64,000 nucleotides of DNA from a bacterium (GCA_023267635.1 JAHFMX010000001.1:83165-147164); one strand, 5' to 3'; counted from the stretch's first letter, positions 1,892 to 56,945 are shown. A program made the numbers and translations. The notes: generated by a model from the letters alone, not told the origin.

Positions 1892-4378
1892 ATGGCAAAA
1901 AAGACTGTTCCACAAGGAGAAAATAACGATGCTGGAGGTGCTTCTGTAGCAGTTCACAACGCCCATCTTAAGGTAAATATTTCTCGTGAAATGAAGGACG
2001 CGTATTTGGATTACGCGATGTCTGTTATTACTTCTCGTGCGCTTCCTGATGCTCGAGATGGAATGAAACCAGTGCACCGTCGAATTCTTTTTGCGATGAA
2101 CAACATGGGTCTTACTGCGGGAGCAAAGTTCCGAAAGTCTGCAACAGTGGTTGGAGAAGTACTCGGTAACTATCACCCTCACGGAGACGCATCAGTGTAT
2201 GATGCGATGGTAAAAACAGCGCAGGATTTTTCGTATCGTTATCCACTTGTTATGGGGCAGGGAAACTTTGGATCAATCGACGGTGACGGAGCAGCTGCTA
2301 TGCGTTATACGGAAGCAAAAATGTCGAAGCTTTCTATGGAAATGATGCGTGATATCGAAAAGGACACGGTAAAGATGGTTCCTAACTATGACGGTACAAA
2401 GCGTGAACCTCATGTTCTTCCAACATCTGTTCCGAACCTTCTTCTTAACGGAACACTTGGTATTGCCGTTGGTATGGCAACAAACATTCCTCCACACAAC
2501 TTGGGAGAGGTGATTGATGCTACGGCGCATTTAATTGATAACCCACACGCAACGACTGAAGAGTTGTGTGACTACGTTAAGGGGCCTGACTTTCCACTTG
2601 GTGGAATTGCATTCGGTCAGTCTGATATTCGTGCAGCGTACGCAACAGGGCGTGGCGGAGTTGTTGTTCGAGGAGAAGCGGAAATTACAGAAACAAAGAA
2701 TGGAATGTTCCAAATCATTATTACTTCTATTCCATACCGTGTACTGAAGAGTAATCTCATTGAAAACATTGCAGATCTTGTGCGTGAAAAGAAAATTGAA
2801 GGCATCAAAGGACTTCGTGATGAATCAACAAAAGACATTCGCGTGGTGATTGATTTGAAGAGTGGTGCTCAGCCACAGAAGGTTCTTAACTATTTATATA
2901 AACACACAGAACTAGAATCAACATTCCATTACAACGTTGTTGCGCTTGTTGATGGTGTACCTCAAACGCTTGCTCTTAAAGGAGCACTTGAAGCGTTTAT
3001 TGGTCACCGAAAGGAAGTTGTTCGTCGTCGTACTGAATTTGATCTTAAACGTGCACTTGAACGTGAACACATCTTACTTGGTCTTAAAAAGGCGCTTGAT
3101 CACATTGATGAAATCATCAAAACAATTCGTGCTTCAAAGGACACACCTGATGCTCATGCGGCTTTGGTAAAGAAGTTTAAGTTCTCAGATATTCAGGCAA
3201 CTGCGATTCTTGAAATGAAGCTTCAGCGATTGGCTGGACTTGAACGAAAGAAGATTGAGGATGACTTGAAAGCAGTTCAGGCTCTCATTGCAGAGCTTAA
3301 GGCAATTCTTGCATCAGAAAAGAAAATGCTCGCAATTATCAAAGGTGAACTTACTGATATCAAAGATAAATACGGAGACGAACGCCGCACAAAGATTGTA
3401 AAGCATCGCGCAAAGGAATTTAATCCAGAAGATTTGATTGCAGATCAGGAACAAGTACTTGTGTATACATCAGGAGGATATGTAAAGCGTACAGACCCTG
3501 CAGAATTTAGAACACAGAAACGTGGTGGTGTTGGAGTTGTTGACATGAACACGAAGGAAGAAGACTTCGTAACGATGTCACTTACTACCTCAACTCACAG
3601 TGATCTTCTCTTCTTTACTGACAAAGGAAAGGCATATCAGATCAAGATGTATGATCTTCCAGAAGGGAAGCGTGCCACTCGTGGGAAATCAATCATGAAC
3701 TTCCTACAGCTAGTGGACGGTGAAAAGGTAACGTCTATCCTTCCAATGTCAAAAGATGTGAAGGCACTCGTTGGGCAGTCTCTTATGATGATTACAAAAG
3801 AAGGAACCGTGAAGAAGTCATCTGCTGAAAGCTTTAAGGATGTGCGAAGAAATGGTTTGATTGCGATTCGTCTAGAGGACAAGGATGAATTACTTGCTGC
3901 ACTTTTTGTAACGGGTGAGGACAATGTGATGCTCACAACTCAGAATGGTCAGTCAATTCGTTTCAATCACACAGATGTTCGAGAAATGGGTCGTACTGCA
4001 GGAGGGGTGATTGGTATGAAGTTAGACAAGGGAGATATCATTGTTGCTGCAGATAAGATTCCAGAAGGAACTCGTGGAGCTGAACTTCTTGTGGTAACTG
4101 CAAATGGATATGGAAAGAAAACAAAACTTTCTGAATACAAAACACAGAAGCGTGGAGGTTCAGGTATCAAGACAGTGAAGGTAACAACAAAAACTGGTCC
4201 GCTTATTGTGGCTCGTGTGGTAACTGCAGAGCATGAAGAACTTCTTGCGGTATCAAAAGATTCACAAGTGATCAGAACAGAAGTAAGTTCTATCCCAACG
4301 CTTGGACGAGACACACAGGGTGTGCGAGTGATGAAGTTGCGGGAGGGGGATAGTGTTGCAACATTTAACTTGCTTTAA
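1892..4378 (+). CDS. gyrA: DNA gyrase subunit A
   Basis: 828 aa; N-terminal [28 protein letters not shown] with the catalytic Tyr region; C-terminal beta-pinwheel repeats. Confidence 0.95.
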
Positions 4379-8170: not shown

Positions 8171-8914
8171 ATGAAAAAGATTCCTTATCTCCAAATTCTT
8201 CTCTTTATTTGTATTGTTAGTTTCGTTTCTATTCCTACGCTTGTGTTTGCTCAGGATGGTGCTGCTCAGATTAACAAAGGCTTTGATACATTTGGCGGAA
8301 TCATTACTAGATTTACTCAAACAATCGTTCGCTCACTTGCAACACTCTTTGCAACCGCGGCCATGGTTGCGTTTTTCTACGGCATCGTACAGTTCATCTG
8401 GGGGTCACGAGACGGAGATGCTACGAAAGCAAAGAATGGTAAGAATTTTATGCTGTGGGGACTCATTGCGCTTTTCGTAATGTTCTCAGTCTGGGGAATC
8501 ATTAACTACGCTCAGGGAATATTTGGTATCGCAGGAAAAAATACAATTGTTATCCCACAGATTGAATTAGGGAATGGTAAGACTCAAGCAGATCCAAGTT
8601 CACAGGGATTGCCAATACTTAGGACTATCTACTATTGTTCAGATGGAACGCCGTATTACAATCAGTCTGATTTCAAAACAGCCTGCGCTCCTGCTCCAGG
8701 GGGTTCATCATCAAATACAACTAACACAAATCCTTGTGCTAATGACCCTAATGGTTTGACGCAGTATGATCCTGAGAGTAAAGGATGTGTGCGACCTTCA
8801 TCGCCAGGAGGAACTACTCAAACACCATATACTTGTCCAGATGGAGTAACGCCGTATTATGCTCCATCTGACTTCTCAACGGTCTGTACAGGTAGTGCGG
8901 CAAGTGGCATTTAA
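8171..8914 (+). CDS. T4SS pilin-like protein (VirB2/TrbC topology) with Cys/Pro-rich C-terminal domain
   Basis: Signal peptide MKKIPYLQILLFICIVSFVSIPTLVFA, then two hydrophobic helices separated by a short GDATKAKNGK loop (FFYGIVQFIWGSRDGDATKAKNGKNFMLWGLIALFVMFSVWGII); paralog of 10461 and 10976; the ORF track extends upstream to 8087. Confidence 0.5.
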   Translation: MKKIPYLQILLFICIVSFVSIPTLVFAQDGAAQINKGFDTFGGIITRFTQTIVRSLATLFATAAMVAFFYGIVQFIWGSRDGDATKAKNGKNFMLWGLIALFVMFSVWGIINYAQGIFGIAGKNTIVIPQIELGNGKTQADPSSQGLPILRTIYYCSDGTPYYNQSDFKTACAPAPGGSSSNTTNTNPCANDPNGLTQYDPESKGCVRPSSPGGTTQTPYTCPDGVTPYYAPSDFSTVCTGSAASGI

Positions 8915-9129
8915 TTTTTCCGACATGTATAAATACAACTTACATCAACGTAAGTAGGCGTGCGTGGAGCGTCACTGAACTTAATTGTAGTCAGCAGAAG
9001 TCTACCTTTTAGAAAATTAGGGTTTAATTACCAGTATTGACAGAATCTTTTTGGTAACGTAGTGTAGAAAATGAAGGTACCGATACATGTCGGTTACTGC
9101 ATTCTTTTTCAACTCATTGGAGGTATTTT

Positions 9130-9888
9130 ATGACCACGAAAAGTGACCCAACGACAGGTGAAAAGACGTTTATGGAGTCTGTTCAGCAGGGTGGGCAACG
9201 CCCACCTAAAAGAGGAGTGGAGGACCATGAGGCAAGAAGGCCTCAAAGGCCAGCTCCTCCTCCCCATGGAACCGCGAGTGGTGGGCAACCTCCAACGCCA
9301 CCACCAGCTGTTCCTGGTGGTGGCGACAACGGAAAGTCTGGAGGTGATGAAGGTGGATCAGGGGGCGGGGTTAAGAAATGGCTGGAGGACAACAAGTTGG
9401 CCACGCTCTTTCTCGGACTTCTTCTGTTGACTACTTTTACTGCAATCGGCAATCAGATATGGGTGTACTATACCCGGCAAAGCATCCAATTGGTCAAGGA
9501 GCTCAACGACGCAGAGTCGTCTCCTGCCAAGGTTGCCGTGCCGCGTGTGGTTCCTGCCAAAATCCCTGTGCCGCCTGCAGTGCAATGTCAGTCGCCTGCA
9601 CCCGGAGCTACGCTTTTCTGGCAGCCACTATCTCTTTCACCAGGAAGCTGTGTGGAGCTTGCTCCACCAGCAAACGGAAGTATGTATTTTTGGGCGACAT
9701 TTTCTGCTGTCCCGAAATCCATGGAAGGCGTGTCTGAGATCAAGAGCGCGCGCGACGCAGGTGGACAGGACATTGTTCCAACAGGCGTTTGCCAAGGATC
9801 CAATTGTCAGGATTTCATCCGCAATCACTTGGGGCAAAGCTTGTTTGTGCGACAAGTTTCCAACCAAAACTTACATATCAAACTTTAA
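9130..9888 (+). CDS. Pro/Gly-rich membrane-anchored surface protein
   Basis: GGAGG 8 nt upstream; N-terminal PPPP/GGxGG low complexity, one TM (LATLFLGLLLLTTFTAIG), C-terminal Cys-containing domain; region GC about 55%. Confidence 0.5.
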   Translation: MTTKSDPTTGEKTFMESVQQGGQRPPKRGVEDHEARRPQRPAPPPHGTASGGQPPTPPPAVPGGGDNGKSGGDEGGSGGGVKKWLEDNKLATLFLGLLLLTTFTAIGNQIWVYYTRQSIQLVKELNDAESSPAKVAVPRVVPAKIPVPPAVQCQSPAPGATLFWQPLSLSPGSCVELAPPANGSMYFWATFSAVPKSMEGVSEIKSARDAGGQDIVPTGVCQGSNCQDFIRNHLGQSLFVRQVSNQNLHIKL

Positions 9889-9900
9889 AGGAGTATCTTC

Positions 9901-10284
9901 ATGTCACCTCCACCAGCAAAAACCACACCAGCCGCAGCCGAGAAGAAGGAGGATGAGAAGAAACCCGAGAAGAAGAAGTCGCTTGGTGAAAATCTTGCGA
10001 TGATCCTGCTCTCCATTCTCTTCATTGTCATTTTCCTGTATATCCTCAATCCGCTTTTGGGAATGGGATTTGACGCAAGCGCGCAGACGATACGAACGAC
10101 TGGCGATGGATTGCAAAGCAACGGGGTTGCCTTGATTCATGCAGGCATCGGCGCTGGGGTCTTCATGGCTGGACTTACCGGCTTCATCCTGAAGATGCTA
10201 CTCATCGCACTGGTTGTCGTCGGTAGTGCACTGCTCGCACGGCTTATTGTCGGATTGATGAAGCCAAAGGAAGCTCACCATTAA
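9901..10284 (+). CDS. Lys/Glu-rich N-terminus membrane protein
   Basis: AAAGGAG RBS; 127 aa with 3 hydrophobic helices; GC-rich like the upstream gene. Confidence 0.5.
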   Translation: MSPPPAKTTPAAAEKKEDEKKPEKKKSLGENLAMILLSILFIVIFLYILNPLLGMGFDASAQTIRTTGDGLQSNGVALIHAGIGAGVFMAGLTGFILKMLLIALVVVGSALLARLIVGLMKPKEAHH

Positions 10285-13061: not shown

Positions 13062-13132
13062 GGGCCTATAGTTTAATGGTAGAACAACGGCCTCCAAATC
13101 CGTTGGTCGAAGTTCGATTCTTCGTGGGCCCG
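13062..13132 (+). tRNA. trnW: tRNA-Trp (anticodon CCA)
   Basis: Cloverleaf: acceptor GGGCCTA/TGGGCCC, D-arm GTTT-AATGGTA-GAAC, anticodon loop CTCCAAA (U33, CCA at 34-36), T-arm CGAAG-TTCGATT-CTTCG; 71 nt; classic rpmG-tRNA-Trp neighbourhood. Confidence 0.8.
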
Positions 13133-35094: not shown

Positions 35095-36207
35095 ATGCCC
35101 CCAACAACTCCCAACAACACACATGTAAACGGTTCATCAGGTCCAGTACCAGCGGGCTATAATCCTGCGAACCCAGTTATCGACCGCACTGCAGGACGTG
35201 TGGATGTAAACAAGCGTAAGATCATCAACGGTGAAGGGGCAGACGTGGTACAGTTGTGGCCAATCAAGCACAAGTTCGCATGGGACGCGTACAATGTTGG
35301 AAATGCAAACCACTGGCTTCCAACGGAAATCAGTATGCAGTCAGACATCGAACAGTGGAAGGCATCAAACGTACTGACAGCAGATGAACGTCACGCACTT
35401 CGTATGGTGCTTGGATTCTTTACAACAGCTGACTCAATTGCTGCGAACAACCTCGTGCTCGCATTCTACAAACACATTACCTCGCCTGAGGCGCGACTCT
35501 TCCTTCTTCGTCAGGCGTACGAAGAGGCGATTCACACACAGGCGTACCAGTACATCGTGGAGTCTCTTGGACTTGATGGAACAGAAATCTTCAATATGTA
35601 TCGTGAGGTGGATGCGATTTATGACAAGGAAGAATTTATTCTTTCTTTCAATCAAGGAATCTTTGATCCAAATTTCAAGACAGGAACATTTGAAAACGAT
35701 CAGAAGTTTCTTGAGAACATGTGCGTATTCTCACTCATCCTTGAAGGAATCTTCTTCTATTCATCGTTTGCGGTTATGTTCGGATTCCAGCGACAGAACA
35801 AGCTTGTTGGTTCAGCAGAACAGATTCAGTACATCATGCGTGACGAATCAACACATATGAACTTCGGTATCGATATGATTAACACGATCAAGCAGGAACA
35901 ACCAGAACTCTGGACACCAGCGTTTGTTGATCGTATCAAGGCGCTTATTGATAAGGCGGTAAAGCTTGAGTATCAGTTCGCAGTGGACGTTTTCCCTAAG
36001 GGAATCTTTGGACTTAACGCTGAAGGGTTCAAGCAGTACATCGAACACATCGCAGACCGACGTCTTGCTCGTGTTGGAATCGACCCTGTGTACAATACAG
36101 CAAACCCATTCCCATGGATGTCAGAGGCGGTGGATTTGAACAAGGAGAAAAACTTTTTCGAGACGCGTGTGACTGAGTATAAGACTGGCGGAACTCTTAG
36201 CTGGTAA
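35095..36207 (+). CDS. nrdB: ribonucleoside-diphosphate reductase beta subunit
   Basis: 370 aa ferritin-like R2; EEAIHTQAY and ESTHMNF iron ligand motifs. Confidence 0.9.
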   Translation: MPPTTPNNTHVNGSSGPVPAGYNPANPVIDRTAGRVDVNKRKIINGEGADVVQLWPIKHKFAWDAYNVGNANHWLPTEISMQSDIEQWKASNVLTADERHALRMVLGFFTTADSIAANNLVLAFYKHITSPEARLFLLRQAYEEAIHTQAYQYIVESLGLDGTEIFNMYREVDAIYDKEEFILSFNQGIFDPNFKTGTFENDQKFLENMCVFSLILEGIFFYSSFAVMFGFQRQNKLVGSAEQIQYIMRDESTHMNFGIDMINTIKQEQPELWTPAFVDRIKALIDKAVKLEYQFAVDVFPKGIFGLNAEGFKQYIEHIADRRLARVGIDPVYNTANPFPWMSEAVDLNKEKNFFETRVTEYKTGGTLSW

Positions 36208-36335
36208 GCCAGCTTCCATTTTCGGCGAATTTCTTTGTTGTCATCGTGCGCTCATGTGTCACTGTACAACTTGTACACCTCCACACTCGCGCACTCGACG
36301 CCTCGAACTTCATCCAAAACTGAAAGCTTAAGTAA

Positions 36336-36896
36336 ATGAAAAGAAAAGACTTAATTGATAATATTGAAGGATCAAGACTTAAGAAGCAGTTCCTAGAAGC
36401 ATTTCTCCTACAGAGTGCTTTTATTGAGGGGTTGTTAAAAAAGCTTGTAGAAGATAATTTCTTTTCAAAAGTCTCCCTTCCTATTATGATGGCCAAGCTT
36501 AAAGAAACTCCAAATTCGTTTACAGAGCCAAAGGAGATTGTTTATTTAAAAGAAAAACTATTAAGGCAAAATCTTTACGAGATTATAGAGCACCTTTCCA
36601 AGGTAGAAGTTATTGATGACGAACTTAAAAAGCAACTTCACTTTTATCGGGATAGAAGAAATTCTATTTTGCATGACCTTGTTGGTAAGATGTCAAAACA
36701 GGAATTCGAAAAAGAAATAGAAGAACTTGTTTCCAAGGGTGTTGCGATACTAAATAACCATTCAATGGTTGCAGCGTCTGAATCTGTAAGGCAAAGAGAG
36801 GAGATCGCAGAAGTAATTGAAAGCGGTGATGAGGAAAAACTTAAAGAGTACTTAGACGCTCTTGGAGAAAAGTCGAAGAAATTACCAGAGGTTTAA
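36336..36896 (+). CDS. hypothetical all-helical protein with HEPN-like R-x4-H motif
   Basis: 186 aa, charged helical; FYRDRRNSILHDLV contains RNxxxH; flanked by GC-rich non-coding DNA. Confidence 0.45.
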   Translation: MKRKDLIDNIEGSRLKKQFLEAFLLQSAFIEGLLKKLVEDNFFSKVSLPIMMAKLKETPNSFTEPKEIVYLKEKLLRQNLYEIIEHLSKVEVIDDELKKQLHFYRDRRNSILHDLVGKMSKQEFEKEIEELVSKGVAILNNHSMVAASESVRQREEIAEVIESGDEEKLKEYLDALGEKSKKLPEV

Positions 36897-36924
36897 AATT
36901 TCTTTTCCCTTCGCTCTCTAAAAA

Positions 36925-37105
36925 GATTTATAGAAAAAGAAAAGCCGAGGACTTATAAGTCCTCGGCAGGTTGCGTCACAGAGCTACGATGTGGAATCCA
37001 CGACACGTGGTGTACGCACCTTGAGTTGTTCAAGACAAACTCACATATAACACACGAAACGACGCTCGGCTGCGGCGACGTGCGCGCGTAGCTCCTACAG
37101 TATAC
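36925..37105 (-). ncRNA. candidate minus-strand small RNA (GC-rich, structured)
   Basis: Minus-strand extended -10 TGGTATACT (plus coords 37099-37107) and a minus-strand intrinsic terminator (stem GCCGAGGACT/AGTCCTCGGC at 36944-36967 followed on the minus strand by TTTTCTTTTT); about 170 nt, no ORF (ATG immediately followed by TGA); internal hairpins GTGGA-A-TCCAC and GGTG-TACG-CACC. Confidence 0.3.
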
Positions 37106-37138
37106 CATTATGGGTTTTGGTTCTGATATACTAAACCC

Positions 37139-38116
37139 ATGTTACACGTATCTCGCAGTCTTCCTGATATCGCCGTTCTCCGTGGAGGAAAAGAGGATTT
37201 TGGTGTGTCTCTTCAAGAAGGACAAGAGGTACTGAAATCACTCTCACAGATTGGCTATAAACCACTCGATGTGTTGGTTGATAAAGAGGGGAATTGGACA
37301 ACGCAAGGAAAGCCAACGGACGCGCACGCTGTGTTTACCCGTGCTCACACGGTGGTGGATGCAACACGAGACGCTCATGCCTCACACATTAAACTCGCAA
37401 AGAAAATGGGGATCACATTATTTTTCTCAAAAGGAAATGATGTACACATGGATAGGGAAGATATGTATCGATTGCTTCGCATGCAAGGATTTAAAGTTCC
37501 TGATACAACAGTTGTGCGAGCGAAGGCGTCACTTGAGGATTCTTTCTTTCGTAATCTCTGGTCAACATATCACACACCGCTCATGATTCGTCCGCTTGAG
37601 CGCAGTAGTACTGAACAGTCAAAACTCGTCACTGCATTTCCAGATTTTGAAAACACGGTACGAGACTTTCATAGTAAGGGGATAGATGTACATGTGCTTA
37701 CATATAAAAAAGCGCCAACATCATCCATAGCTGTACTCCCTAACTTTCGTGGAGAGGAACTCTACACACCTCTTTGGGTTGAAACATTTGGAAGCCTAAA
37801 TGCAATTCCAAATAGAAGTCATCCAATGCGCGCTCACGCAAACGCACCTGACTACAGAAAGGAACAAATGAAAGATATTGCTACAAAAGTATACAAGGCG
37901 CTTAATCTTTCTTCCCCAGCCTGTATCGATGTTGTTCCGCACGGAGATGGATATATGATTGTGAACGTTGAACGTACTCCGTCTATCGGTAAAGAGGGAC
38001 GCTTCATGCAGTCGCTCCATTCAACAGGAATTGATGTTGGGCAATATGTGCATTCTCAGATTCAGCGCGAACTGGAAAGCGTTGCACCTCTACAACCATA
38101 TGAGTACGCGAGATAG
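37139..38116 (+). CDS. ddl: D-alanine--D-alanine ligase-like ATP-grasp enzyme
   Basis: 325 aa; IAVLRGGKEDFGVSLQEGQEVLKSL..VLVDKEGNW matches the Ddl N-terminal pattern AVLxGGxSxExxVSLxS..V..D..G.W; TGATATACT 9 nt before ATG. Confidence 0.5.
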   Translation: MLHVSRSLPDIAVLRGGKEDFGVSLQEGQEVLKSLSQIGYKPLDVLVDKEGNWTTQGKPTDAHAVFTRAHTVVDATRDAHASHIKLAKKMGITLFFSKGNDVHMDREDMYRLLRMQGFKVPDTTVVRAKASLEDSFFRNLWSTYHTPLMIRPLERSSTEQSKLVTAFPDFENTVRDFHSKGIDVHVLTYKKAPTSSIAVLPNFRGEELYTPLWVETFGSLNAIPNRSHPMRAHANAPDYRKEQMKDIATKVYKALNLSSPACIDVVPHGDGYMIVNVERTPSIGKEGRFMQSLHSTGIDVGQYVHSQIQRELESVAPLQPYEYAR

Positions 38117-56123: not shown

Positions 56124-56909
56124 ATGTTTGAAGAAATAAAAAAGTTCAAAGACCTCATAGTTACATGGTTAGCTTTATTTATAGGGGTTGGTGTCTTCTT
56201 CTTCTTCTTTGGAATGGCACCTGCAACACTTTTTGGGCACTTGGTACATATTCCACTTCCAACCGATGTATCTTTTGCTGCGCAGTTTTTTAGAATGATG
56301 GAGGAATCTATTTTGCCAGCAGGGGTTACTCTTGTTGCGTTAGGTCCGCTCTCTGCTCTTAATACGCAAACGATTGTTGCGTTTATGCTATCTTTTCTGG
56401 TTACGTTTCCATATCTTTTGTATAGACTGGTGCGGTATATTTCTCCAGCGCTCCATACGAATGAGCGTAAAGCTTTTCTCACGGTGCTTGTTCCTGCTAT
56501 AGTTCTTTTCTTCAGCGGAGCACTATTCTCCTATAAGTTTGTTATACCTCCAACATTTAAGGCTTTGTATTCGTATACCGCTGCTACAGGAGTAGTATCT
56601 ATTTTTTCAATGGAAGCTTTTGTTTCAACGGTTGTTACATTTATGGTAGTTTCAGGGTTCTTGTTCTTACTACCTATTTTTATGGTGTTATTAAGTTTCT
56701 TAGGAATCTGTCCACCACCATTTTGGTGGAAGAATTGGCGCTATGCACAGTTCAGCTTTCTAGCCTTCTCTGCTATAATTACACTAGACGGAAGCGGTGT
56801 TAGCATGGTGCTACTCTCTTTGCCTCTGACAGGATTGTATGCTGTCGGGGCTACGGTTGCACAGGTTACACACAAACAAAGTATTACGGAGATTACAGGA
56901 ACAACGTAA
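56124..56909 (+). CDS. tatC: twin-arginine translocase subunit TatC
   Basis: 261 aa, 6 TM; FLVTFPYLLYRLVRYISPALHTNERKAF parallels E. coli TatC ILYQVWAFIAPALYKHERR. Confidence 0.8.
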   Translation: MFEEIKKFKDLIVTWLALFIGVGVFFFFFGMAPATLFGHLVHIPLPTDVSFAAQFFRMMEESILPAGVTLVALGPLSALNTQTIVAFMLSFLVTFPYLLYRLVRYISPALHTNERKAFLTVLVPAIVLFFSGALFSYKFVIPPTFKALYSYTAATGVVSIFSMEAFVSTVVTFMVVSGFLFLLPIFMVLLSFLGICPPPFWWKNWRYAQFSFLAFSAIITLDGSGVSMVLLSLPLTGLYAVGATVAQVTHKQSITEITGTT

Positions 56910-56945
56910 TCTATTTCTATTATTTATTAACTATCTATCACTACT

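What the first reader, a model, noticed from the sequence alone, without database searches (positions are those of the whole stretch)
36925..37105. Candidate minus-strand sRNA with its own extended -10 and intrinsic terminator
On the minus strand, TGGTATACT (plus coords 37099-37107) is followed about 160 nt later by a strong hairpin (GCCGAGGACT/AGTCCTCGGC) and then TTTTCTTTTT. On the plus strand the same hairpin lacks a U-tract. The interval is GC-rich, has multiple internal hairpins and no ORF. It is antisense and adjacent to the start of the ddl-like gene and downstream of the HEPN-like gene, so it is a possible regulatory or antitoxin RNA.
Basis: seen in the sequence. Interest (0 to 1): 0.5.

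Follow-up and report, generated by a model that had tools for sequence, protein, structure and literature searches.

The report
New structured small RNA in Nomurabacteria
The flagged stretch is a real stand-alone gene for a folded small RNA of about 155 nt, with its own promoter and terminator, conserved in related candidate-phyla-radiation bacteria, absent from the Rfam RNA family database, unlinked to the neighbouring HEPN-like gene, and of unknown function.

Summary
On the minus strand, TGGTATACT (37099-37107) is a genuine promoter type for this organism. TGNTATACT occurs 10 times against 1.8 expected, and the other nine copies sit 6-32 nt before long ORFs. A 10-bp GC-rich hairpin plus U-tract (36967-36935) follows.

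The source is a Candidatus Nomurabacteria genome. Seven other distinct contigs (ddl protein 66-96% identical) carry a homologous RNA gene. All lie on the same strand in the variable nrdB-ddl interval, each with the same promoter type and its own terminator. A ninth, divergent copy is probable (L022).

The 3' domain comprises hairpin PD, a P3/P4/P5 three-way junction and the terminator. It is 92-98% paired, with 12-13 pairs changed on both sides; shuffled and slid controls score far lower.

Two elements are invariant: a 5' CUAC and the P5 loop GUAGCUC, inside YCACA-NN-GUAGCUC-UGUGR-CG.

There is no Rfam, tRNA or tmRNA match. The 51-aa ORF is broken by a stop in the closest relative. The downstream neighbour differs in almost every locus, so the HEPN-antitoxin idea is not supported. 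The RNA does not overlap ddl.

Best reading: a new family of trans-acting structured sRNA. Its partner is unknown.

The parts
37099..37107 (-). Extended -10 promoter TGGTATACT of the small RNA
   Evidence: Exact match. The motif is 5.6-fold enriched in the window, and the other 9 copies lie directly before long ORFs. All 8 homologues have TG(G/A)TATACT at the same distance from the conserved CUAC; the divergent L022 copy has TGATATAAT.
36935..37092 (-). Predicted small RNA transcript of about 155 nt. The start is inferred as the 7th nt after the -10 element and the 3' end as lying within the U-tract.
   Evidence: Start and end are inferred from the promoter and terminator. There are no expression data.
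37087..37092 (-). 5'-terminal block GCUACG. CUAC is invariant in all homologues and is complementary to the GUAG of the P5 loop.
   Evidence: In the window the complementarity extends to 9 bp, GGAGCUACG/CGUAGCUCU. Because both sides are invariant, the pairing itself is inferred.
37050..37085 (-). 5' domain. P2 stem GCGCACG (37085-37079) pairs with CGUGUGU (37056-37050). It carries a short apical hairpin (37077-37063) and a U-rich 3' internal loop UCGUUU (37062-37057).
   Evidence: The CACG/CGUG core is present in 7 of 8 homologues, and the apical extension varies in length from 13 to 50 nt. The stem is predicted in the single-sequence folds. It was not quantified for covariation.
37023..37042 (-). 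Hairpin PD: GAGUU [UGUCUUGAAC] AACUC
   Evidence: Of its 5 pairs, 3 change on both sides across homologues (GGGUU/AACCC, GGGUC/GACCC, GGGCC/GGCCU, GAGUU/AACUC). Cells paired: 97.5%. RNAalifold also recovers it on an uncurated MAFFT alignment.
36968..37021 (-). Three-way junction domain closed by P3: AGGUGCG (37021-37015) pairs with CGCAACCU (36975-36968)
   Evidence: P3 is nearly invariant, with one compensatory change in L021 (AGGUA/UACCU) and a bulged A that switches strand in the window. It is predicted in the single-sequence folds of the window and L006. It depends on the curated or model-based alignment and is lost on plain MAFFT.
36998..37010 (-). Hairpin P4: CCACG UGU CGUGG
   Evidence: The sequence is not conserved but a hairpin is always present at this position (GGCG/YGCC, CCGC/GCGG, CGACUC/GAGUCG). 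On the manual alignment 5 of its 6 aligned pair positions change on both sides. Support is weaker on the model-made alignment.
36976..36994 (-). Hairpin P5: CCACA [UC GUAGCUC] UGUGA, with the invariant loop GUAGCUC at 36987-36981
   Evidence: CACA-NN-GUAGCUCUGUG is identical in all 8 homologues. The closing pair covaries: U-A in 3, C-G in 2, U-G in 1, and C.A in the window and L001. It is recovered on the uncurated alignment.
36935..36967 (-). Intrinsic terminator: stem 36967-36944 followed by the U-tract 36943-36935
   Evidence: In the 8-pair core aligned across all homologues, 100% of cells are paired and 3 pairs change on both sides. The extra basal G-C pair of the window is A-U in L001.
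37124..37132 (+). Context only, not part of the RNA: the divergent TGATATACT promoter of the leaderless ddl-like gene (ATG at 37139)
   Evidence: The same arrangement, TGNTATACT plus 6 nt plus ATG, precedes ddl in L002, L003, L006 and L017.

Best explanation
The interval holds a stand-alone gene for a structured, non-coding small RNA of a family that has not been described.

**Transcription.** RNA polymerase starts from an extended -10 promoter of the type this lineage uses for its genes, many of which look leaderless. It stops at a strong intrinsic terminator, giving a transcript of about 155 nt, or 190-220 nt in relatives.

**Fold.**
- A 5' stem (P2) with a U-rich internal loop and an apical extension of variable length.
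- A hairpin (PD).
- A three-way junction (P3/P4/P5).

**Invariant parts.** These are the P3 and P5 helices, the 7-nt P5 loop GUAGCUC and the 5'-terminal CUAC.

**Inferred mechanism.** The 5' CUAC(G) pairs with the (C)GUAG of the P5 loop, closing the molecule and hiding its 5' end. The invariant P3/P5 module is the surface recognised by a trans-acting partner. That partner is more likely a protein or another structured RNA than an mRNA bound through a linear seed. The reason is that whole helices are conserved in sequence while peripheral helices and junction strands vary freely.

The RNA is not functionally tied to whichever gene lies next to it.

**What is shown and what is inferred.** Shown: promoter type, terminator, conservation, covarying helices, absence of a conserved ORF, and variable neighbours. 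Inferred: the exact 5' and 3' ends, the 5'-end/loop pairing, and action in trans through the P3/P5 module.
For: **Promoter.**
- The motif is enriched and linked to gene starts.
- Across about 200 kb of fetched DNA, the combination of an extended -10, 5-9 nt and CTAC occurs only at these RNA genes.

**Terminator.** Found. It carries compensatory changes in relatives.

**Homologues.**
- They lie at L001 3798-3960, L006 3606-3812, L011 485-684, L012 9083-9301, L016 8575-8770, L017 9745-9962 and L021 1477-1688.
- All are on the strand opposite to ddl.
- nhmmer E-values run from 1e-20 to 1e-59. The covariance model gives 85-126 bits and no other significant hit in 198 kb.

**Structure.**
- Manual alignment: 31 pairs, 97.9% of cells paired against 86.8 +/- 1.5 in shuffles, and 13 pairs changed on both sides against 7.7 +/- 1.4 (0 of 500 shuffles). 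Slid controls are 28-40% paired.
- Model-made alignment: 91.8% paired and 12 pairs changed on both sides.
- RNAalifold gives the same structure on the manual alignment. On plain MAFFT it recovers PD, P5 and the terminator.
- The MFE fold of L006 alone reproduces P1, P2, PD, P3, P4 and P5.

**Strand.** The promoter and U-tract are on the minus strand in every locus. Wobble pairs give only a slight hint: 7 G-U cells against 4 A-C cells.

**Non-coding.**
- The 51-aa ORF starts in the -10 element and has an in-frame TGA in L001.
- Reading the aligned homologues, indels do not preserve a reading frame (my reading).

**Not a known family.** There is no Rfam hit over the RNA in the window or in five homologous loci, even at E <= 5-10. 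ARAGORN finds nothing.

**Neighbours.** They vary between loci.
Against: - There are no expression data, so the transcript and its ends are predicted only.
- Only 8 clear sequences, from one narrow clade, are available. Two are near-identical. Relatedness can inflate the shuffle statistics.
- P3 and P4 depend on an alignment made with the structure in mind.
- P3, P5 and the 5'-CUAC/loop-GUAG pairing are almost invariant, so they carry little or no covariation.
- In the window itself the P5 closing pair is a C.A mismatch. A competing 9-bp 5'/3' helix is possible there.
- No partner was found. Duplex prediction against 119 ORF starts in the window gave nothing better than shuffled seeds. The loop complement GAGCUAC is not enriched, at 5 observed against 5.0 expected.
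- A pattern scan of JGI metagenome contigs found only chance hits. The family is therefore rare there, or too divergent for an exact 19-base pattern.
Confidence: 0.65

Rival explanations
1. Classical base-pairing small RNA. The invariant stretch GUAGCUCUGUG(A/G)CGCA, partly exposed in the P5 loop, acts as a seed that pairs with one or more mRNAs elsewhere in the genome. The rest of the molecule is scaffold.
For: - The 17-22-nt stretch is invariant while ddl proteins are only about 70% identical.
- It lies just upstream of an intrinsic terminator, as in many trans-acting small RNAs.
- Its location is independent of neighbouring genes.
Against: - Most of the invariant stretch is base-paired in covariation-supported or predicted helices.
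- No complementary site with <= 3 mismatches exists in the 64-kb window.
- The best duplex with ORF starts (-21.4 kcal/mol) is weaker than the typical best for shuffled seeds (mean -24.0).
- The loop complement is not enriched.
- Only about a tenth of the genome could be searched, so targets elsewhere are not excluded.
Confidence: 0.2
2. Local cis effect rather than an RNA-level function. The strong minus-strand promoter and terminator sit between co-directional plus-strand genes and act as an insulator. This could work by promoter occlusion of ddl, by polymerase collision with read-through from nrdAB or the accessory genes, or through an antisense duplex with read-through transcripts.
For: - The RNA gene is always on the strand opposite to all its neighbours and always in the nrdB-ddl interval.
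- In the window and in L017 the two -10 elements are back to back, 16 and 14 nt apart.
- On the plus strand the hairpin has no U-tract, so read-through across the RNA gene is plausible.
Against: - Covarying helices and an invariant hairpin loop are not needed for insulation.
- In L006 and L011 the RNA promoter lies about 130-150 nt from the ddl promoter, with a separate terminator hairpin between them.
- In L012, L016 and L021 the divergent neighbour is not ddl.
Confidence: 0.08
3. RNA antitoxin or regulator of the adjacent HEPN-like gene.
For: The 186-aa neighbour has weak HEPN-type similarity: PADLOC CARF_HEPN E = 7e-4 and Pfam DUF4145 E = 4e-3, both below curated thresholds. It is convergent with the RNA.
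Against: - That gene is next to the RNA only in the window (and in L004, its near-identical copy).
- The 96%-identical relative L001 has a different 225-aa ORF there. The other six homologues have FKBP, 8xMP or unrelated ORFs.
- The RNA contains no tandem repeats.
- It does not overlap the HEPN-like coding sequence, which ends at 36896, while the RNA ends at about 36935.
Confidence: 0.03
4. Orphan riboswitch-like sensor. The folded domain binds a metabolite or ion and controls its own terminator. Read-through then produces an antisense RNA against the convergent genes, which ancestrally were nrdB and nrdA.
For: - It has a multi-helix fold with a candidate pseudoknot directly followed by an intrinsic terminator.
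- It has a conserved core with variable peripheral helices.
- It always points towards the nrdAB operon.
Against: - No gene lies downstream on the same strand.
- Junction strands j2 and j3 are variable. The conserved nucleotides lie in helices, unlike known aptamers.
- I saw no conserved anti-terminator alternative on reading the sequences. This is inspection only, not a computation.
- One to three unrelated accessory genes now separate the RNA from nrdB in every RNA-carrying locus.
- No Rfam riboswitch model matches.
Confidence: 0.04

Closest known systems
Stand-alone bacterial small RNAs with their own promoter and a Rho-independent terminator, including protein-binding structured ones such as 6S RNA or bacterial Y RNAs
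   Same: It is an independent transcription unit in an intergenic region and is non-coding. It is G+C-rich relative to the genome, ends in an intrinsic terminator, is 150-220 nt long, and has a conserved fold.
   Different: There is no sequence or structure match to any Rfam family. The architecture is a 5' stem, a hairpin and a three-way junction, not the 6S rod with a central bubble and not a Y-RNA stem with a tRNA-like module. No partner protein gene is linked.
Riboswitch-derived or riboswitch-controlled small or antisense RNAs without a downstream ORF, such as B12-riboswitch EutX/Rli55 and AspocR, or the SreA SAM riboswitch acting in trans (recalled from the literature, not tested here)
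   Same: A complex folded domain is followed directly by a terminator, with no ORF downstream. It is convergent with protein genes.
   Different: There is no recognisable aptamer class. Junctions are variable and I saw no anti-terminator alternative. The convergent genes are not conserved.
RNA antitoxins: type III ToxI-like repeats and type I antisense RNAs
   Same: It is a small non-coding RNA next to a gene with weak HEPN-type similarity, in the window only.
   Different: It has no repeat array and no overlap with a toxin mRNA. It has no conserved toxin partner, and its neighbours change between close relatives.
tRNA and tmRNA genes as landmarks next to variable gene islands
   Same: It is a small structured RNA gene whose 3' side borders a hypervariable set of accessory genes in the nrdB-ddl interval.
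   Different: ARAGORN finds no tRNA or tmRNA features here. No duplicated 3' segment (att-like repeat) flanks the variable genes. No integrase was seen in the intervals.

Membership tests
Any described RNA family (Rfam 15, 4227 models) | A covariance-model score at or above the family's gathering threshold, or at least a consistent sub-threshold hit across homologues | tested here: not met
   The gathering-threshold scan of the window finds only tRNA-Trp at 13062-13132. An E <= 10 scan of 36850-37200 gives only two terminator-hairpin hits on the opposite strand, at 14-17 bits against thresholds above 170. An E <= 5 scan of five homologous loci gives nothing over the RNA.
tRNA / tmRNA | Cloverleaf or tRNA-like domain detectable by ARAGORN | tested here: not met
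   ARAGORN finds one gene in the window, tRNA-Trp, and it is not here.
Independent small RNA gene (generic kind) | Its own promoter of the type used by the organism | tested here: met
   TGGTATACT. The motif occurs 10 times against 1.8 expected, and 9 of 10 copies lie before ORF starts. It is conserved in all homologues.
Independent small RNA gene (generic kind) | Its own intrinsic terminator on the same strand | tested here: met
   A 10-bp stem plus TTTTCTTTTT. The stem is kept through compensatory changes in all homologues.
Independent small RNA gene (generic kind) | No conserved protein-coding frame | tested here: met
   The 51-aa ORF starts within the -10 element and is interrupted by TGA in L001. 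Reading the aligned homologues, frame-shifting indels occur among them (my reading).
Independent small RNA gene (generic kind) | A discrete transcript detected | not testable with these tools
   No transcriptome data are available.
Type III antitoxin RNA (ToxI-like) | Tandem array of direct repeats, immediately upstream of and co-transcribed with a toxin gene | tested here: not met
   There are no tandem repeats in the interval. No gene lies downstream on the same strand, and the neighbours differ between loci.
Type I antitoxin / cis-antisense RNA | Overlap with, or extended complementarity to, a neighbouring mRNA that is conserved with it | tested here: not met
   The RNA (36935-37092) overlaps neither coding sequence; the HEPN-like gene ends at 36896 and ddl starts at 37139. 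ddl looks leaderless from 37124-37132. Overlap with read-through transcripts cannot be excluded.
Riboswitch | Located in the 5' leader of a regulated gene on the same strand | tested here: not met
   Reading the gene tables, no locus shows a called gene downstream of the RNA's 3' end on its strand.
Riboswitch | Specific ligand binding that changes the expression platform | not testable with these tools
   This needs in-line probing or transcription assays.
6S RNA | Long irregular hairpin closed by the 5' and 3' ends, with a large central bubble | tested here: not met
   The consensus is multi-branched, with a 5' stem, a hairpin and a three-way junction. No Rfam family, 6S included, gave a hit at E <= 10.

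The most novel reading that the evidence does not exclude
The RNA is the scaffold or ligand-sensing component of a CPR-specific system that has not been described. Examples would be an RNA-protein complex recognised through the invariant P3/P5 module, or an orphan sensor whose read-through silences the convergent nrdAB side. The probable divergent copy in the outgroup locus L022 hints that the family is much wider in Paceibacteria than exact-motif searches reveal.
Probability: 0.12. Interest if true: 0.7.

Novelty: new member of a known kind. Interest (0 to 1): 0.45.

Why it matters
I found no paper describing non-coding RNAs specific to candidate-phyla-radiation bacteria in four literature searches. 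These organisms have tiny genomes, are mostly uncultured, and are poorly covered by RNA family databases.

This case gives a concrete RNA gene family supported by covariation, with defined promoter, terminator and secondary-structure elements. It can be turned into a covariance model and searched across Patescibacteria genomes and metatranscriptomes.

It also documents the promoter grammar of this lineage: TGNTATACT, often 6-8 nt before the start codon. It shows that the nrdB-ddl interval is a hotspot of gene turnover. If a partner is found, it would be one of the first functional small RNAs described in Parcubacteria. If not, it remains a well-defined orphan family of narrow distribution.

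Tried and rejected
- **Known RNA families.** Rfam at the gathering threshold and at permissive E-values found nothing over the RNA, on the window and on five homologous loci. ARAGORN found nothing here.
- **Phage and plasmid collections.** blastn gave one 24-nt chance match in phages and none in plasmids.
- **Viral contigs.** A scan with GTAGCTCTGTGACGCA gave 3 hits, judged chance hits on reading them: none has a terminator or flanking similarity. The degenerate motif gave 0 hits.
- **Metagenome contigs.** Both lie in high-G+C sequence unlike the RNA and I judged them chance hits. In hindsight the pattern was too strict, because the probable L022 homologue would not match it.
- **Coding hypothesis.** The 51-aa ORF and the short ORFs after the SD-like AGGUG are not conserved in frame (my reading).
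- **tRNA-like, hammerhead-like and SRP-like readings.** I considered these by eye. I dropped them because the defining motifs are absent and Rfam is silent.
- **Closing helix from the -10-proximal bases.** GGGUUCU could pair with GGAACCC before the terminator in L006, L012 and L021. I rejected this as a family feature. It is absent from the window, L011 and L017, and the 5' strand probably lies upstream of the transcription start.
- **Integration-site idea.** No second copy of the RNA's 3' motif or other att-like repeat flanks the variable genes.
- **mRNA target search in the window.** RNAduplex against 119 ORF starts did no better than shuffled seeds. The loop complement is not enriched.
- **Second orphan promoter at 56771.** I suspected another ncRNA. 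It precedes a 34-aa hydrophobic ORF upstream of a TatA-like gene.

Full report
**1. What is in the sequence**

On the minus strand the interval reads TGGTATACT (37107-37099), then gtaggaG, then CUACGCG. A G+C-rich body follows. It ends in GCCGAGGACU-UAUA-AGUCCUCGGC (36967-36944) and UUUUCUUUUU.

The terminator scan reports this hairpin with 10 pairs, 7 of them G-C, a 4-nt loop and a T-rich tail. On the plus strand the hairpin is followed by AGGTTGCGTC, so it is a terminator only for the minus strand.

The body is 55% G+C, against 42% for the window. Folding the 166 nt gives -61.5 kcal/mol, z = -3.57.

**2. The promoter is real for this organism**

TGNTATACT occurs 10 times in 64 kb against 1.8 expected, and no shuffle reaches 10. 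Nine of the ten copies lie 6-32 nt upstream of the start codon of an ORF of 74-1041 aa. Six of these are only 6-10 nt upstream, which implies leaderless mRNAs. The tenth copy is the one in the finding and has no ORF behind it.

The ddl-like gene (37139-38116) has its own TGATATACT at 37124-37132, 6 nt before its ATG. The two units therefore diverge, with -10 elements 16 nt apart, and do not overlap. The RNA is not antisense to ddl.

**3. Organism and homologues**

Searching with the ddl-like protein identifies the source as a Candidatus Nomurabacteria (Parcubacteria, CPR) genome. Contigs fetched through ddl relatives gave seven further distinct copies of the RNA gene:

| Locus | Coordinates |
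|---|---|
| L001 | 3798-3960 |
| L006 | 3606-3812 |
| L011 | 485-684 |
| L012 (= L013) | 9083-9301 |
| L016 | 8575-8770 |
| L017 (= L018-L020) | 9745-9962 |
| L021 | 1477-1688 |

nhmmer E-values range from 1e-20 to 1e-59.

Every copy lies between nrdB and ddl, on the strand opposite to all flanking genes. Each starts with TG(G/A)TATACT, then 6-9 nt, then CUAC, and ends in its own G+C-rich hairpin and U-tract. Across about 200 kb of fetched sequence, that promoter-plus-CTAC signature occurs only at these genes.

The same signature also picks out a divergent copy in the outgroup locus L022 (8016-7848). It has TGATATAAT, gaaatt, CUACGCG, a stem with a GUUU internal loop, a hairpin presenting CGUAG, and a terminator. 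The covariance-model hit there is only E = 1.4, so I call it probable.

The RNA is absent from L002, where nrdB abuts ddl. It is also absent from L005, where a conserved element upstream of the RNA promoter survives without the RNA. L003 and L007 have under 650 nt upstream of ddl, so absence there is not established.

On the ddl tree, RNA-bearing loci span the whole ingroup. The picture is a clade-level gene with occasional loss, not a sporadic element.

**4. It is non-coding**

The only sizeable ORF is 51 aa (36953-37108, minus strand). It begins inside the -10 element and is cut by an in-frame TGA in L001. On reading the aligned homologues, their indels are not multiples of three and no frame is shared (my reading).

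**5. Structure**

I derived the helices by reading the sequences. I then encoded a register-true alignment of the 3' domain, using N as padding.

| Helix | Window sequence | Variants in relatives |
|---|---|---|
| PD | GAGUU/AACUC | GGGUU/AACCC, GGGUC/GACCC, GGGCC/GGCCU, GGGUU/AGCCC |
| P3 | AGGUGCG/CGCAACCU | AGGUGACG/CGCACCU; AGGUAACG/CGUACCU in L021 |
| P4 | CCACG/CGUGG | GGCG/YGCC, CCGC/GCGG, CGACUC/GAGUCG |
| P5 | YCACA[NNGUAGCUC]UGUGR | closing pair U-A in 3, C-G in 2, U-G in 1, C.A in the window lineage |

The terminator is the fifth helix.

- **Manual alignment.** It has 31 pairs and 97.9% of cells are paired, against 86.8 +/- 1.5 in shuffles (0 of 500 reach it). Thirteen pairs change on both sides, against 7.7 +/- 1.4. 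Sliding the 3' partners by 1-3 columns drops pairing to 28-40%.
- **RNAalifold.** On that alignment it returns the same structure. On a plain MAFFT alignment it still recovers PD, P5 and the terminator but loses P3 and P4.
- **Model-made alignment.** A covariance model built on the MAFFT alignment re-aligns the eight sequences. It gives 91.8% pairing and 12 pairs changed on both sides.
- **Single sequence.** The MFE fold of L006 alone reproduces P1, P2, PD, P3, P4 and P5.

Three caveats apply. There are only eight related sequences, two of them near-identical. The alignments lean towards the structure. P3 and P5 are mostly invariant.

The 5' domain is a stem with core CACG/CGUG; in the window it is GCGCACG/CGUGUGU. 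It carries a U-rich 3' internal loop, (U)CGUUU or GGUU, and an apical extension of 13-50 nt. L011 and L021 add an extra hairpin and a second UCUACACGU copy. I did not quantify this domain.

Strand assignment rests on the promoter and U-tract. Wobble pairs give only a slight hint, with 7 G-U cells against 4 A-C cells.

**6. What is conserved, and what that suggests**

- **Invariant in all eight:** the 5' CUAC, CACA-NN-GUAGCUCUGUG-R-CG, and most of AGGUG(A)CG/CGCA(A)CCU.
- **Variable:** junction strands j2 and j3, P4, the apical extension of P2 and the terminator sequence.

Conservation of the sequence of whole helices, together with free variation of peripheral elements, is what one expects of a molecule recognised by a protein or folded through tertiary contacts. 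A linear-seed small RNA would show a different pattern.

CUAC(G) at the predicted 5' end is complementary to (C)GUAG in the P5 loop in every member, including L022. In the window the complementarity extends to 9 bp. I infer a 5'-end/loop pseudoknot. Because both sides are invariant, there is no covariation to prove it.

**7.

The gene convergent with the RNA's 3' end differs between loci:

| Locus | Convergent gene |
|---|---|
| Window | weak HEPN/DUF4145-like 186-aa ORF (Pfam E = 4e-3, PADLOC CARF_HEPN E = 7e-4) |
| L001 | unrelated 225-aa ORF |
| L006, L021 | FKBP |
| L012 | 180-aa ORF, behind a Bro-N gene |
| L016 | 8xMP protein |
| L017 | 262-aa ORF |

The divergent neighbour is ddl in five loci, FKBP in L012, and small unknown ORFs in L016 and L021.

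The nrdB-ddl interval is thus a hotspot of gene turnover in which the RNA is the constant element. This argues against an antitoxin or regulator dedicated to the HEPN-like gene. There are no tandem repeats. No att-like duplicate of the RNA's 3' end was found.

**8. Search for function**

- No site complementary to the invariant 16-mer with <= 3 mismatches exists in the window apart from the gene itself.
- RNAduplex of the invariant 26-mer against 119 ORF starts gives a best value of -21.4 kcal/mol. The mean best for shuffled seeds is -24.0.
- GAGCTAC is not enriched, at 5 observed against 5.0 expected.
- Phage, plasmid, viral-contig and JGI metagenome searches gave only chance matches.
- Literature searches for CPR, Parcubacteria or Patescibacteria structured or small RNAs returned nothing that describes this RNA.

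**9. Verdict**

This is a genuine, independently transcribed, structured small-RNA gene of a family absent from Rfam, conserved in a Nomurabacteria/Paceibacteria sub-clade.

- Confidence that it is such a gene: about 0.85.
- Confidence in the proposed way of working (trans action through the invariant P3/P5 module, with the 5' end tucked into the P5 loop): about 0.35-0.4.
- The antitoxin and ddl-antisense readings are not supported.

It is a new member of a known kind: stand-alone bacterial structured small RNAs. It is of moderate interest because it comes from a lineage in which I found no described small RNAs in the literature searches, and because its distribution as seen here is narrow.

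Noticed in passing
window, whole (e.g. 5197, 14402, 19713, 37124 on +; 50201, 46884, 42893 on -): Many genes have TGNTATACT only 6-10 nt before their start codon. This implies widespread leaderless mRNAs driven by extended -10 promoters in this Nomurabacteria genome. The same arrangement precedes ddl in L002, L003, L006 and L017.
   Followed up: partly
window 36208-37138 and the matching nrdB-ddl intervals of L001, L002, L005, L006, L012, L016, L017, L021, L022: The interval between nrdB and ddl is hypervariable among relatives. It holds between zero and four co-oriented accessory ORFs, including a HEPN-like ORF, FKBP, Bro-N, 8xMP, Trypsin_2 and unknowns. No integrase or flanking repeats were seen.
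   Followed up: partly
L022 7848-8016 (minus strand): A probable divergent member of the RNA family lies in an outgroup genome. It has TGATATAAT, 6 nt, CUACGCG, a stem with a GUUU internal loop, a hairpin presenting CGUAG, and a terminator. It lacks the PD and P4 hairpins and the 'invariant' 3' motif. The covariance-model hit is only E = 1.4.
   Followed up: partly
L005 1190-1260, L006 3824-3870, L011 694-740, L016 8780-8825, L021 1698-1745 (minus strand): A conserved element of about 40 nt, CTGCCAGAAAnGnGGnnAAAAGG(C/T)AATT, lies just upstream of the RNA promoter. It persists in L005, where the RNA gene from its -10 element through its terminator is missing. It is absent from the window. Its role is unknown; it may be an upstream promoter element or a regulator site.
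   Followed up: no
L011 640-684 and L021 1640-1688 (minus strand): These two RNAs carry a second copy of UCUACACGU and an extra 5' hairpin between the copies. The ddl of L021 is closest to that of L016 (84% identity), whose RNA lacks this feature. This hints at recombination of the RNA gene between lineages.
   Followed up: no
window 36246-36294: A G+C-rich imperfect inverted repeat (24-nt arms, 71% complementary) lies in the spacer between nrdB and the HEPN-like ORF, downstream of a small terminator-like hairpin at 36199-36214. Its function is unknown.
   Followed up: no
window 56771-56910: TGCTATAAT with no long ORF behind it turned out to precede a 34-aa hydrophobic ORF (ATG at 56806). This lies upstream of a TatA-like gene starting at about 56947. 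It is a small protein, not an ncRNA.
   Followed up: partly
window 36953-37108 (minus strand): A 51-aa Cys/His-containing ORF overlaps the RNA gene. Its ATG lies inside the -10 element and it is broken by TGA in L001, so it is almost certainly spurious. Gene callers did annotate a similar spurious 104-aa ORF over the RNA in L011 (408-722).
   Followed up: yes
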